A stretch of 64,000 nt of DNA from Malacoraja senta (Eukaryota), in the NCBI GenBank assembly GCA_038087875.1, contig CM075988.1, forward strand, positions 20,462,001 through 20,526,000, in the 5' to 3' direction. The notes under the pieces were generated by a model. It saw nothing but the letters and a program-made list of their open reading frames with translations, was not told the DNA's origin and searched no databases. Position 1 is the stretch's first letter, and every line of letters begins with the position of its first letter. A program made the position numbers and the translations under genes. This document shows positions 51,299-57,456 of the stretch, piece after piece.

Positions 51299-52476
51299 TG
51301 GTATCTTGGTCACAGGTATCACTCGAGTACTATTGTGGTTAAACCGTTGGATTATTACCCGGAGACCTGTATTTTGAGCAAAAAACAAAGTGTTGGGAGT
51401 AGTCAGTGGGTGAGGCAGCTTCTGAATGGATGAGGTTTTGGGTCGGGACCCTTCTTCAGAATGAGTGGTGGGGATAATGTTGGAAAAGGCAATGCCCGGC
51501 TAGTGATAGGTGGGTACAGGTGAGGGGGTTGATTGGCAAAGGGGTGGAGTAAGTGATGAAGGATGGAGGTGAAAAAGAGACAAAATGGGGTCAGAGAATA
51601 AGAACAGAAACTGAGTGAAATTTGTGGAATTCATTGCCACGGACACCTGTGAAGGCCAAGCCAATGGATATTTTTAAGGCAGAGATTGACAGATTCTTGA
51701 TTAGGACGGGTGTCTGGAGTTATGGGGAGAAGGCAGGAGAATGGGATTGAGAGATCAGATAGATCAGCCATGATTGAATTGCGGAGTAGACTTGATGGGC
51801 TGAATGGCCTAATTCTGCTCCTAGAAATGAACCTGAAATATAAAGCCGGATGAAGGTTTGTGGGTGGAAGGTGATGAGGAGGGGAAAGTGGGGGTATATA
51901 AAGGAAAATGGGAGTCTCAGGGATGGGAGATGAGTGTACAGAGGAGAATAAAGGATCAGGGTGACTGGCTGAAGGTGGCAGATGGCGGGAGAAGTAGGTG
52001 CGCATGGGGATGAGGGTGGGCAAAGGCCAGAGAGAGAGAGAGGGCACGGTGGTAGTACTTGTAATCATGGCATCCAGTGTTCATATTGTTAAGTTATAAG
52101 CTACCCAGGTGGAATACGAGTGCCCCATTTCCCTATTTTAGATACGCAGCATATTCATGAGGAATAATTGGGGCCGCACAGTGGGGCGGTGGTGGAGTTG
52201 CTGCCTTACTGCACCAGAGTCCCAGGTTTGATCCTGACTATGGGTGCTGCCTGTATGGAGTTTGCAGGTTCTCCCTGTGATCAGATGCTCTGGTTTCCTC
52301 CCACATTCCAAAGATGTGCAGGTTTGAAGGTTAATTGGCTTCATTAAATTGCCCCTAATATGTAGGATATAATAATGGGATAACATAGAGTAGTGTGTGG
52401 GATGATCATTGGTAGGAGCAGACTCGGTGGACTCCAGTATACGGGTGATCATTGGTCGGCTCAGATCAGTTGTGCT

Positions 52477-52621
52477 TCTTCTTCTTCTTGCGTATGGCTT
52501 GCACAGCCTAAAGTTGTAGGACGACTTGTTCTATTTGATCTTACTCGATTGTGCAAGCTGGGTTGATTGCATTCGTCGAAACATTCGTCGAAACCGCGTG
52601 AAGGTTGCAATCTCCCACCCC
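52477..52621 (-). mobile_element. ~145-bp non-autonomous Vingi/Ingi-like retroelement
   Basis: Minus strand starts GGGGTGGG and ends CATACGC(AAG)n; GTTGTGCT duplicated at 52469-52476 and 52627-52634. Confidence 0.65.
52565..52621 (-). ncRNA. HDV-like self-cleaving ribozyme fold, defective in this copy
   Basis: P2 GAUUGCA/UGCAAUC, P3 ACC/GGU, 7-nt L3 UUCACGC, J4/2 CGAA; the P1 3' strand position is occupied by a 12-bp tandem duplication. Confidence 0.6.
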
Positions 52622-53009
52622 AACCTGTTGTGCTGAAGCGCCTGTTTCCACAATGTTTCTGTGAACTAAACTAAACGGGACCCGCCTGCCGACGCACGGT
52701 TACTCAGTGCATCTTCAGGGGCTGATGTGTTCCGTCTAGGAGGCTTCTCTGTGGCTGCAGCTTGTTGCTGGAACCCTGCTGACCTGGTGATTCAGGTCGG
52801 CGACGTGGGTGGGTCACATCCATTTTCATCCACTCCTCTCTCAGAGGGACCAGGATCTACAAAGAAGCATCTGAAGTGTTGGGAACCCCACCTCAGTCAT
52901 TCCCAACCCCAGATGCATTTCCAGCTGTGTACAATGAATAGGATGGGAGGAAGTTCAGATTTAAGGTGTAAACTCATTGTGGCTTTGCAGGTGGAAGTGT
53001 TGAACTCTG

Positions 53010-53638: not shown

Positions 53639-56600
53639 TCAGTATCCCGTACCTGCCTTCTCTCCATACCCCCTGATCCCTTTAGCCACAAGGGCCACAT
53701 CTAACTCCCTCTTAAATATAGCCAATGAACTGGCGTCAACTACCCTCTGTGGCAGAGAGTTCCAGAGATTCACCACTCTCTGTGTGAAAAAGTTTTTCCT
53801 CATCTCGGTCTTAAAGGATTTCCCCCTTATCCTTAAGCTGTGACCCTTGTCCTGGACTTCCCCAACATCGGGAACAATCTTCCTGCATCTAGCCTGTCCA
53901 ACCCCATAAGAATTTTGTACGTTTCTATAAGATCCCCTCTCAATCTCCTAAATTCTAGCGAGTATAAGCCAAGTCTATCCAGTCTTTCTTCATATGAAAG
54001 TCCTGACATCCCAGGAATCAGTCTGGTGAACCTTCTCTGCACTCCCTCTATGGCTATAATGTCCTTCCTCAGATTTGGAGACCAAAACTGTACGCAATAC
54101 TCCAGGTGTGGTCTCACCAAGACCCTGTACAACTGCAGTAGAACCTCCCTGCTCCTATACTCAAATCCTCTTGCTATGAAGGCCAACATACCATTCGCTT
54201 TCTTCACTGCCTGCTGCACCTGCATGCCTACTTTCAATGACTGGTGTACCATGACACCCAGGTCTCGCTGCATCTCCCCATTTCCTAATCGGCCACCATT
54301 TAGATAATAGTCTGCCTTCCCGTTTTTGCTACCAAAGTGGATAACCTCACATTTATCCACATTATACTGCATCTGCCAAACATTTGCCCACTCACCCAGC
54401 CTATCCAAGTCACCTTGCAGTCTCCTAGCATCCTCCTCACAGCTAACACTGCCCCCCAGCTTAGTGTCATCCGCAAACTTGGAGATGTTGCTTTCAATTC
54501 CCTCGTCCAGATCATTAATATAAATTGTAAATAGCTGGGGTCCCAGCACTGAGCCTTGCGGTACCCCACTAGTCACTGCCTGCCATTGTGAAAAGGACCC
54601 GTTTACTCCTACTCTTTGCTTCCTGTTTGCCAGCCAGTTCTCTATCCACATCAATACTGAACCCCCAATACCGTGTGATTTAAGTTTGTATCCTAATCTC
54701 TTATGTGGTACCTTGTCGAAAGCCTTCTGAAAGTCCAGATACAACACATCCACTGGTTCTCCCCTATCCACTCTACTAGTTACATCCTCGAAAAATTCTA
54801 TAAGATTCGTCAGACACGATTTACCTTTCGTAAATCCATGCTGACTTTGTCCAATGATTTCACCACTTTCCAAATGTGCTGCTATCCCATCTTTAATAAC
54901 TGACTCTAGCAGTTTCCCCACTACCGATGTTAGACTAACTGGTCTGTAATTCCCCATTTTCTCTCTCCCTCCCTTCTTAAAAAGTGGGGTTACGTTTGCT
55001 ACCCTCCAATCCTCAGGAACTACTCCAGAATCTAAAGAGTTTTGAAAAGTTATCACTAATGCATCCACTATTTCTGGAGCTACTTCCTTAAGTACTCTGG
55101 GATGCAGCCTATCTGGCCCTGGTGATTTATCGGCCTTTAATCCATTCAATTTACCCAACACCACTTCCCGACTAACCTGGATTTCACTCAGTTCCTCCAT
55201 CTCCTTTGACCCGCAGCCCCCTGCTATTTCCGGCAGATTATTTATGTCTTCCTTAGTGAAGACGGAACCAAAGTAGTTATTCAATTGGTCTGCCATATCT
55301 TGTTCCCCATGATCAATTCACCTGTTTCTGACTGCAAGGGACCTACATTTGATTTAACTAATCTCTTTCTCTTCACATATCTATAAAAACTTTTGCAGTC
55401 AGTTTTTATGTTCCCTGCCAGTTTCCTTTCATAATCTATTTTCCCTTTCCTAATTAAGCCCTTTGTCCTCCTCTGCTGGTCTCTGAATTTCTCCCAGTCC
55501 TCTGGTATGCTGCTTTTTCTGGCTAATTTGTACGCATCATCTTTTGCTTTGATACTATCCCTGATTTCCCTTGTTATCCACGGATGCACTACCTTCCTTG
55601 ATTTATTCTTTTGCCAAACTGGGATGAACAATTTTTGTAGTTCATCCATGCAGTCTTTAAATGCCTTCCATTGCATATCCACCGTCAACCCTTTTAGAAC
55701 TAATTGCCAGTCAATCTTGGCCAATTCACGTCTCATACCCTCAAAGTTACCTTTCTTTAAGTTCAGAACCGTTGTTTCTGAATTAACAATGTCACTCTCC
55801 ATCCTAATGAAGAACTCAACCATATTATGATCACTCTTGCCCAAGGGGGCACGCACAACAAGTCTGCTAACTAACCCTTCCTCATTACTCAATACCCAGT
55901 CTAGAATAGCCTGCTCTCTCGTTGGTTCCTCTACATGTTGGTTTAGATAACTATCCCTCATACATTCCAAGAAATCCTCTTCCTCAGCACCCCTGCCAAT
56001 TTGATTCACCCAATCTATATGTAGATTGAAGTCACCCATTATAACTGTTTTGCCTTTGTTGCACGCATTTCTAATTTCCTGTTTGATGCCATCCCCAACT
56101 TCACTACTACTGCTAGGTGGCCTGTACACAACACCCACCAGCGTTTTCTGCCCCTTAGTGTTTCGCAGCTCTACCCATACCGATTCCACATCCTCCAAGC
56201 TAATGTCCTTCCTTTCCACTGCGTTAATCTCCTCTCTAACCAGCAACGCTACCCCACCTCCTTTTCCTTTCTCTCTATCCCTCCTGAATATTGAATATCC
56301 CTGGATGTTCAGCTCCCAGCCTTGGTCACCTTGGAGCCATGTCTCCGTGATCCCAACTATATCATAATCATTAATTGCTATCTGCACGTTCAACTCATCC
56401 ACCTTATTACGAATGCTCCTTGCATTGAGACACAAAGCCTTCAGGCTTGTTTTTACAACGCTCTTACCCCTTATACAATTATGTTGAAAAGTGGCTCTTT
56501 TTGATTTTTGCCCTGGATTTGTCTGCCTGCCACTTTTACCTTTCACCTTGCTACCTATTGCTTCCGCCCGCATTTTACACCCCTCTGTTTCTCTGCTCAC
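53639..56600 (-). CDS. CR1 ORF2 (AP endonuclease plus reverse transcriptase), two 1-nt frameshifts (~55300, ~53845); start position uncertain
   Basis: LNARSIRNK, GITETWL, MGDFN, SDHN, NYRPVSLTS, QHGF, YLDFQKAFDKV, GVPQGSVLGP, KFADDTKL; TGA at 53639-53641 after correction. Confidence 0.93.
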
Positions 56601-56752
56601 CCATTTAAGAACCCCACCACCTCTTATTCTCTGTTTATTATTGTTTTCTTCTTTCCCCCCTACATGTTGGGTCTGAGTGCTTTCCTTCTCTGCCTCCTGC
56701 CTCACACACTGTCTAATAGCATTCTCTATTTGAGTCCCTCCCCCCAACCATT

Positions 56753-57388
56753 CTAGTTTAAAGTCTCCCCAGTAGACTTTGCAGATCTCCCCGCCAGGAT
56801 ATCGGTCCCCCTCAGGTTCAAGTGCAACCCATCCTTTTTGTACAGGTCGAACCTTCCACAAAAGAAGTCCCAATGATCCAGAAATTTGAATCCCTGCCTT
56901 CTGCACCAGTCCTTCAGCCACGCATTTATCCTCCACCTCGCTCCATTCCTACTCTCACTGTCGCGTGGTACAGGCAGTAATCCCGAGATTGTTACCTTTG
57001 CTGTCCTTCTCTTTAACTCCCCTCCTAACTCCCTAAATTCTCCTTTCAGGACCTCTTCTCTTTTTTTACCTATGTCATTGGTACCTATATGTATCACGAC
57101 CTCGGGCTCCTCTCCCTGCCCTTTCAGGATGTCTTGGACACGTTGAGACACATCACAGACCCTGGCACCAGGGAGGCAAACTACCATCCGGCTCTCCCGA
57201 CTGCGTCCACATAATCGCCTGTCTGACCCCCTAACTATAGAGTCCCCTATTAATATTGCCCTCCTCTTCTTTTCCTTACCCTTCTGAGCAACAGGACCGG
57301 TCTCTATACCGGAGGCCCGGCCGCTGTCGCTACCCCCAGGTAGGCTGTCCACCCCAACAGTGCTCAAACAGGAGTACTTATTGTCAAG
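56753..57388 (-). CDS. CR1 ORF1, SGNH/GDSL esterase domain (5'-partial)
   Basis: IGDSIVRG, CLPGA, HIGTND and DGLHL esterase blocks. Confidence 0.92.
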   Translation of the reverse strand, partial: LDNKYSCLSTVGVDSLPGGSDSGRASGIETGPVAQKGKEKKRRAILIGDSIVRGSDRRLCGRSRESRMVVCLPGARVCDVSQRVQDILKGQGEEPEVVIHIGTNDIGKKREEVLKGEFRELGGELKRRTAKVTISGLLPVPRDSESRNGARWRINAWLKDWCRRQGFKFLDHWDFFCGRFDLYKKDGLHLNLRGTDILAGRSAKSTGETLN

Positions 57389-57456
57389 GTAGCTCAGGCC
57401 CTCGATTCCTGGCACCATCCTTGTAGCTCAGGCCCTCGATTCCTGGCAGCATCCTT
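57389..57456. repeat. 34-bp tandem duplication at the CR1 5' junction
   Basis: GTAGCTCAGGCCCTCGATTCCTGGCA(C/G)CATCCTT twice. Confidence 0.9.

What the first reader, a model, noticed from the sequence alone, without database searches (positions are those of the whole stretch)
52477..52621. 145-bp mini-retroelement with an HDV-like ribozyme at its 5' end, disabled by a 12-bp duplication
Seen: the minus strand reads GGGGUGG-GA-GAUUGCA-ACC-UUCACGC-GGU-[UUCGACGAAUG]-UUUCGA-CGAA-UGCAAUC. It continues with a 9-bp stem (52497-52505 / 52550-52558) and an (AAG)n tail, with an 8-bp flanking duplication. Known: this order (P1, P2, P3/L3, P1', P4, J4/2 with catalytic C, P2') is the HDV double pseudoknot, used at the 5' ends of R2 and Ingi/L1Tc-type non-LTR elements. 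Seen: the P1 3' strand is absent and CATTCGTCGAAA is tandemly doubled (52570-52593). Inference: a SINE-like family with no tRNA head, made only of ribozyme plus a Vingi-like 3' recognition end. It would cut itself out of host transcripts instead of using a Pol III promoter. This copy is probably dead.
Basis: partly seen in the sequence, partly recalled or inferred. Interest (0 to 1): 0.78.

Follow-up and report, generated by a model that had tools for sequence, protein, structure and literature searches.

The report
Ribozyme-headed mini-copy of a Vingi retrotransposon
This is one broken copy of a 129-base jumping element, present over 5,000 times in this animal genome, that joins the two ends of a longer, likely Vingi-type retrotransposon and starts with a very small RNA fold predicted to cut itself out of longer transcripts.

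Summary
Window 52475-52621 (-) is a damaged copy of a 129-nt + (AAG)n family (5,082 matches to a family-specific motif). Intact copies carry the missing P1 strand and fit an HDV-like double pseudoknot of only 54 nt, with no P4 helix. I found the parent: a Vingi-like APE-RT LINE without RNase H, sharing about the first 80 and last 35 nt. So this is a bipartite internally deleted LINE (SIDE/NARTc type), a known kind, not a new SINE class. Two other Vingi-like families start with the same fold in different letters (11 of 18 pairs compensated, all paired). The window copy lost P1' through a 9-nt deletion; the 12-nt duplication is a second lesion. Self-cleavage and the absence of an internal promoter are untested. 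Apparently new in what I could read: HDV-like heads on Vingi, a P4-less ribozyme in a vertebrate-type retroelement, and LINE copies whose extreme 5' end is inserted inverted (6 of 36 Vingi-B loci; 12 of 17 independent Vingi-A heads), which suggests the ribozyme end is held at the insertion site.

The parts
52475..52621 (-). Whole insertion: damaged copy of the 129-nt bipartite Vingi-like element plus (AAG)5 tail
52565..52621 (-). HDV-like ribozyme region (54 nt in intact copies, 57 here), broken in this copy
   Evidence: descriptor finds intact copies but nothing in the window; covariation
52615..52621 (-). P1 5' strand; G1 at 52621 is the predicted cleavage site and the family's 5' end
   Evidence: 48 of 56 middle-anchored copies start at nt 1-2
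52606..52612 (-). P2 5' strand
52593..52605 (-). P3 / L3 / P3' with U20, C22, G25
52582..52593 (-). Extra copy of the 12-mer standing where the 9 deleted nt (P1' and the P1.1 G) should be
52572..52575 (-). J4/2 with the predicted catalytic C (52575)
   Evidence: C invariant across three families
52565..52571 (-). P2 3' strand
52538..52564 (-). Rest of the LINE-derived 5' UTR (family nt 55 to about 81), with the 5' arm of the stem (52550-52558)
   Evidence: matches LINE 5' end in L184, L214, L220, L224
52524..52537 (-). Junction found only in the short element (local duplication plus short fold-back arm)
   Evidence: origin inferred
52490..52523 (-). LINE 3' end: last codons, stop and 3' UTR, with the 3' arm of the stem (52497-52505)
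   Evidence: same 3' end in the Vingi-B loci
52475..52489 (-). (AAG)5 tail
52469..52476 (.). Target-site duplication, 3' copy (8 bp exact)
52627..52634 (.). Target-site duplication, 5' copy
52169..52680 (+). Older abundant repeat into whose 3' part the element inserted in opposite orientation; likeness to elasmobranch HE1-type tRNA SINEs is recalled, not tested
   Evidence: hits in 121 of 344 sequences searched and 14 window hits, longest non-self hits 67-73% identical

Best explanation
It is a dead copy of a 129-nt non-autonomous retroelement made of the two ends of a likely Vingi-type LINE, whose first 54 nt form an HDV-like fold predicted to self-cleave just before G1. Shown: shared ends with the LINE, no ORF, over 5,000 dispersed copies, 5' ends at G1, target-site duplications, (AAG)n tail, and conservation of the fold across three LINE families by compensatory changes. 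Inferred: a read-through or internally started transcript is trimmed by the ribozyme to a unit-length RNA; the LINE's APE-RT protein binds the two ends in trans, nicks DNA and reverse transcribes from the AAG tail. Inferred: the 5' region also docks on the protein, which would explain why internal deletions keep it, why LINE heads appear inverted at truncation points, and why 5'-only copies exist. The window copy likely arose by two template slips at nt 36-38 (P1'/P1.1 junction) during one round of reverse transcription.
For: Family size and ends. Partner LINE: the 3' end is shared in the loci (29 of 30 directly, one interrupted); same head on near-full-length L214 ahead of an APE reading frame and on the 1.6-kb deletion derivative L184 with an 11-bp duplication. 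RT but no RNase H by Pfam; the closest full-length relatives are about 1,000-1,050 aa APE+RT proteins. Fold: my descriptor hits only heads of this family and of Vingi-A and -C in 2.45 Mb of loci, 0 in the window, 0 in 3.05 Mb of Markov control; 18 of 18 pairs formed in all 7 rows, 11 with changes on both sides including P1.1 C-G to U-A, slid controls 36-48% paired. The only Rfam hit on an intact copy is an HDV family over exactly nt 1-54. The three subfamily-defining changes in the ribozyme (nt 8, 32, 45) all keep the fold. The P1 deletion occurs at only 9 exact-pattern loci, spread over subfamilies, so no ribozyme-less master is evident.
Against: No cleavage data. The Rfam score is weak (14.4 bits, gathering 44, E 1.5) and Rfam gave no ribozyme hit on L184, L330, L342. 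The covariation rests on three lineages (7 rows chosen among intact heads). P4 is reduced to 5 nt, so activity is not guaranteed. Nested folding gives z = -1.5 and +0.4 for intact copies (it cannot model pseudoknots). 5' ends at G1 would also result from an internal promoter starting at +1. Four of the 9 P1-less loci share one subfamily background; that subfamily is large (831), but a minor P1-less source is not excluded. 'Vingi' rests on architecture and recalled motifs, with no labelled reference tree. The sampled Vingi-B copies look older (mostly 84-92% pairwise) than the youngest short copies (3.4% mean difference in a set selected by likeness), so the last driver may be another family.
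Confidence: 0.75

Rival explanations
1. Dual head as in L1Tc Pr77: the 5' region is mainly an internal Pol II promoter and protein-binding site, and the ribozyme is a back-up, so the element does not depend on host transcripts.
For: Pr77 precedent in the sister clade (PMC3383444 abstract; PMC4035085 passages). Over 5,000 dispersed copies in several subfamilies fit autonomous transcription. Kojima 2018 expects Pol II transcription of bipartite LINEs.
Against: No promoter evidence was obtained. The three heads conserve pairing rather than sequence. This rival changes the RNA source, not the element's identity.
Confidence: 0.3
2. The fold is kept only as a structure (nuclease shield or protein dock) and no longer cleaves in this family because P4 is gone.
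For: Only 5 nt replace P4, against 36-40 nt in Vingi-A and -C. Inverted and 5'-only copies point to a binding role.
Against: Catalytic C, U20, G25, G1-U36 and P1.1 are all retained (71 of 94 copies starting at G1 have the full set; one of the four sets was selected for an intact core). P4-less HDV-like ribozymes cleave in vitro (10.1101/2023.06.13.544163, passages).
Confidence: 0.15
3. A classical Pol III SINE with a degenerate tRNA-derived head.
For: A loose B-box-like word near nt 37-43 (by eye).
Against: ARAGORN finds nothing in 3 loci or the window; no A box within one mismatch, and B-box matches only with a mismatch at nt 51 and 77-79; the head is the LINE's own 5' UTR.
Confidence: 0.03
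4. An RTE-derived bipartite element.
For: One RTE family has an AAG tail; another shares 19 of 21 nt with the P2/P3 part of the head.
Against: Neither RTE 3' end matches the element, while Vingi-B matches both ends at about 90-100%.
Confidence: 0.02

Closest known systems
R2 SIDEs (Eickbush and Eickbush 2012, PMC3414825; abstract read)
   Same: 5' HDV-like ribozyme joined to the LINE 3' end by internal deletion, moved in trans.
   Different: R2 is an rDNA-specific element and SIDEs are rare; this one is dispersed, APE-type, 129 nt and exceeds 5,000 copies.
NARTc and RIME of the L1Tc/ingi clade (PMC4035085 passages, PMC3383444 abstract)
   Same: Sister clade; non-autonomous truncated partner sharing a 5' HDV-like ribozyme that cleaves 5' of +1.
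   Different: Trypanosome elements whose parent has RNase H and a 77-nt promoter-ribozyme; here 54 nt without P4, no RNase H found, animal genome.
Non-autonomous Vingi derivatives, e.g. of Vingi-1_EE (second-hand via Kojima 2018, PMC5786205; the 2011 paper was not held)
   Same: Internal-deletion derivatives of Vingi keeping both ends.
   Different: [quoted passage not shown]
Minimal HDV-like and theta ribozymes (10.1101/2023.06.13.544163, passages); CPEB3 ribozyme (PMC4836649, passages)
   Same: P4-less double pseudoknot; G1-U36, U20-G25 and catalytic C with the same core numbering as CPEB3.
   Different: That paper found its theta motif almost only in phages and none in the eukaryote genomes it searched; here the fold heads a multicopy animal retroelement.
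L1 5' inversion by twin priming (PMC4245944, passages)
   Same: Inverted 5' segment plus truncated 3' segment inside one target-site duplication.
   Different: Reported almost only for L1 in that study. Here the inverted piece is the extreme 5' end (mostly 60-260 nt), usually with 1-2.5 kb missing between the pieces.

Membership tests
HDV-like ribozyme | 7-bp P1 starting with G1, G1-U wobble | tested here: met
   Intact copies and three LINE heads; NOT met in the window copy
HDV-like ribozyme | P2 and 3-bp P3 nested as a double pseudoknot, with compensatory changes | tested here: met
   P2 5 of 7, P1 4 of 7, P3 1 of 3 pairs changed on both sides
HDV-like ribozyme | P1.1 pair and U20, G25 in L3 | tested here: met
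   C22-G37 versus U22-A37; U20 and G25 invariant
HDV-like ribozyme | Catalytic C in J4/2 (C-N-R-A) | tested here: met
HDV-like ribozyme | P4 helix (absent in the minimal class) | tested here: not met
   5 nt only in this family, 36-40 nt in Vingi-A and -C; places it with the minimal class
HDV-like ribozyme | Rfam gathering score | tested here: not met
   14.4 bits against 44, RF02682; none
HDV-like ribozyme | Mg2+-dependent self-cleavage 5' of G1 | not testable with these tools
   bench test
Bipartite non-autonomous LINE (SIDE type) | 5' end and 3' end of one autonomous LINE, interior deleted, no ORF | tested here: met
Bipartite non-autonomous LINE (SIDE type) | Independent insertions with tail and target-site duplication | tested here: met
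   88 of 109 unique copies; 5,082 motif matches
Vingi clade (partner LINE) | Compact single-ORF APE-RT element lacking RNase H (definition from PMC13708176 passages) | tested here: met
   about 3 kb; APE by tblastn and translation, RT by Pfam, no RNase H hit; copies are broken, so a single ORF is inferred
Vingi clade (partner LINE) | RT phylogeny with named Vingi references | not testable with these tools
   no labelled reference among the 120 listed hits
Pol III SINE (tRNA/7SL/5S/snRNA head) | Small-RNA-derived head with A and B boxes | tested here: not met
RTE-derived bipartite element | 3' end shared with an RTE LINE | tested here: not met

The most novel reading that the evidence does not exclude
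Vingi LINEs as a clade begin with an HDV-like ribozyme whose cleaved 5' end is held by the element's protein at the second nick. That one property yields unit-length RNA, a hallmark 'inverted head' on truncated copies, 5'-only insertions, and extremely successful two-ended parasites. This family would be the smallest such unit, with the first P4-less self-cleaving HDV ribozyme amplified thousands of times in a vertebrate-type genome.
Probability: 0.45. Interest if true: 0.72.

Novelty: new variant of a known kind. Interest (0 to 1): 0.52.

Why it matters
It addresses a question left open by Kojima 2018: why only RTE, Ingi, Vingi and R2 spawn two-ended non-autonomous elements. Vingi was the one of the four without a listed ribozyme. 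It offers a natural 54-nt ribozyme with thousands of variants, and a minimal 129-nt template that outlines what a Vingi protein needs. Vingi-1 is being developed as a gene-insertion tool with 5' and 3' UTR-flanked templates (PMC13708176, passages), so a 5' ribozyme and a tendency to insert the 5' end inverted are directly testable product-quality questions. The window copy itself is only a dead insertion.

Tried and rejected
Rfam on the window copy: no ribozyme hit. Negated-letter patterns to find the LINE directly returned only subfamilies and truncated copies; the partner turned up by chance beside an RTE locus. RTE as parent: rejected. Vingi-A and Vingi-C as parent: rejected (different ends). 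Long-range 5'-3' UTR pairing in the LINEs: complementary words exist by eye in all three families, but the test is weak (best window near the ribozyme end in the top 2.9% for A and 2.4% for C, 27% and 48% for two decayed B copies; shuffle p 0.07-0.20), so it is a lead only. A ribozyme-less master subfamily: not supported. Expression: no RNA holder listed and only contigs available; 5' ends could not be read. Inverted heads in Vingi-C: none shared among 25 truncated loci; one ordinary internal inversion (L277/L332). Kojima 2011 and Ruminski 2011 were not held; Repbase, Dfam and patents could not be searched; no supplements were opened. Earlier scan findings: none. One search ranked papers by fish terms and is uninformative. 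I did not identify the organism; 'cartilaginous-fish-like' is recalled from the flanking repeat.

Full report
Observation. Rfam sees nothing relevant in this copy. The genome G000 (1.94 Gb) holds a large family: 40 scored of 1,149 candidates, the 39 non-self hits at 90-92% identity; 847 exact matches to the intact 45-nt core; 831 to a second subfamily's motif; 800 to a pattern that mainly catches older subfamilies; and 5,082 to a motif spanning the junction found only in the short element. Controls were 0 in each pattern search. Haplotype duplicates on unplaced contigs inflate these counts somewhat, and exact matching deflates them.

Anatomy of the family. Copies are 129 nt plus (AAG)n. Of 109 unique copies (120 examined minus one self copy and 10 duplicates), 88 have a target-site duplication of 7 bp or more, mostly 10-15 bp. 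In the two sets anchored on the middle, and so unbiased for the 5' end, 48 of 56 start at nt 1-2, 5 at nt 3-10 and 3 further in. Contigs from four runs of four coded organisms and four studies show the same boundaries with unrelated flanks (4 of 24 listed runs laid). ARAGORN finds no tRNA, and there is no A box.

The ribozyme. Intact copies give P1 (7 bp, G1-U36), a 2-nt J1/2, P2 (7 bp), P3 (3 bp), a 7-nt L3 with U20 and G25, a single P1.1 pair C22-G37, five unpaired or barely paired nt in place of P4, and J4/2 with C44. A descriptor I wrote found this fold only at heads of this family and at the 5' ends of two other Vingi-like LINEs (A, 85 nt; C, 89 nt) in 2.45 Mb of loci; it found none in the window and none in 3.05 Mb of Markov control. 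The A and C heads were located by position first. On a 7-row alignment all 126 cells pair and 11 of 18 pairs change on both sides, including P1.1; slid controls pair 36-48%. This is three lineages, so it is strong but small evidence. The only Rfam hit on an intact copy is HDV-F-prausnitzii over exactly nt 1-54, at a weak 14.4 bits, E 1.5; three LINE loci gave no ribozyme hit. G1-U36, U20-G25 and the catalytic C match the CPEB3/HDV core (PMC4836649, passages). P4-less HDV-like ribozymes are known to cleave and were reported almost only from phages (10.1101/2023.06.13.544163, passages). Cleavage here is inferred, not shown.

The parent LINE. Searching RTE loci gave no shared 3' end, but a neighbouring fragment did. 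Its family, Vingi-B, ends in the element's last 33-36 nt plus AAG in the 30 loci fetched (one interrupted). L214 carries the same head ahead of an APE frame and the same tail 2.8 kb away; L184 is a 1.6-kb internal-deletion form with both ends inside an 11-bp duplication. The short element equals LINE nt 1 to about 81, about 15 junction nt, and the LINE's last codons and 3' UTR. Pfam finds RT and no RNase H in Vingi-B pieces, and APE plus RT in Vingi-A. The nearest full-length relatives are about 1,000-1,050 aa APE+RT proteins; of 120 listed hits one, at 33% identity, has RNase H. A compact single-ORF APE element without RNase H is the Vingi description in PMC13708176 (passages). The name is otherwise recalled from motifs, with no labelled tree.

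The window copy. Against an intact copy it lacks 9 nt between two GT dinucleotides (P1' and the P1.1 G) and has a 12-nt tandem duplication next to the gap. The same deletion junction matches at 9 loci genome-wide. One is the window, one (L236) has a similar slip-duplication with other endpoints, and four belong to the 831-member subfamily. Both slips map to nt 36-38, so I infer reverse-transcriptase stalling at the pseudoknot; DNA replication slippage is the alternative. Both arms of the 9-bp stem are changed in matching fashion in this copy (G63T, C120A).

Unexpected signature. Of 36 unique Vingi-B loci (40 listed, 3 duplicates dropped, 1 not fetched), 6 carry the extreme 5' end inverted at the truncation point and 2 carry it directly; two of the six run into LINE-only sequence, the other four could derive from short-element RNA. 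For Vingi-A, 30 of 84 head matches were examined. Eleven of 16 chromosomal loci are inverted; 13 further loci share one inverted junction (one amplified event); one is a duplicate. That gives 12 inverted against 5 direct. Inverted pieces mostly run from nt 1-7 to nt 165-260, and flanking duplications are visible in several. Two direct heads are 5'-only insertions of about 190 and 240 nt with 13-bp duplications and no LINE 3' end. None of 25 truncated Vingi-C loci showed a shared inverted head. Twin-priming inversions were seen almost only with L1 in PMC4245944 (passages). In R2 a 5' RNA motif binds the protein subunit that makes the second cut (PMC6895275, passages). I infer a similar 5' docking for Vingi. 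A 5'-3' UTR base-pairing bridge is possible but tested weak.

Comparison and novelty. Ribozyme-plus-tail elements are known: R2 SIDEs (PMC3414825, abstract), NARTc and RIME (PMC4035085, passages; PMC3383444, abstract), reviewed in PMC6765202 (passages). Kojima 2018 (PMC5786205; first fifth, passages and section 23 read) lists Vingi among clades with bipartite derivatives but not among clades with ribozymes. Searches for Vingi with ribozyme (6 papers), Vingi alone (38), Vingi with inversion (4), twin priming terms, minimal HDV-like (11) and ribozyme with Leucoraja (0) showed no report of these points in listings or in the passages read. Kojima 2011, Ruminski 2011, Repbase, Dfam, patents and supplements were not seen and could hold them. 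PMC5753468 (passages) added nothing.

Verdict. A real feature and a new variant of a known kind. Identity as a bipartite Vingi-like derivative about 0.93; the fold about 0.9; cleavage by intact copies about 0.8; dependence on host transcripts about 0.5. Interest 0.52.

Noticed in passing
L210, L218, L219, L220, L222, L224 (Vingi-B); L239, L241, L243-L245, L247, L248, L250-L252, L254, L255-L268 except L264 (Vingi-A): 5'-truncated LINE copies carry an inverted copy of the element's extreme 5' end, usually with 1-2.5 kb missing between the pieces.
   Followed up: partly
L246 and L249: 5'-only Vingi-A insertions (about 240 and 190 nt from G1) with 13-bp target-site duplications; one ends in a short poly(A), one at an internal GAAG.
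   Followed up: partly
L342:4135-4219 (-) and L330:3296-3384 (-): Heads of Vingi-A and Vingi-C fit full HDV-like ribozymes with a P4 region; not detected by Rfam.
   Followed up: yes
L130, L131, L134, L136 5' ends; L126: RTE 5' ends share a P2/P3/L3-like word with this head but did not pass my descriptor; possibly a related ribozyme with a different layout.
   Followed up: no
L255-L268 (unplaced contigs): One inverted-head Vingi-A insertion appears amplified many times, probably as part of a larger repeated unit.
   Followed up: no
window 52497-52505 / 52550-52558: Both stem arms differ from other copies in a compensating way (G63T, C120A) in this dead copy; chance or quasi-palindrome correction.
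   Followed up: no
window 53833-57427 (-): Nearly intact LINE with a GDSL-esterase ORF1, APE and RT frames; CR1/L2-type by recall.
   Followed up: no
3' ends of Vingi-A, -B, -C: All three end in a similar short CAT-x-CG motif plus an AAG-type tail, so cross-mobilisation of the short element by a younger family is possible.
   Followed up: no
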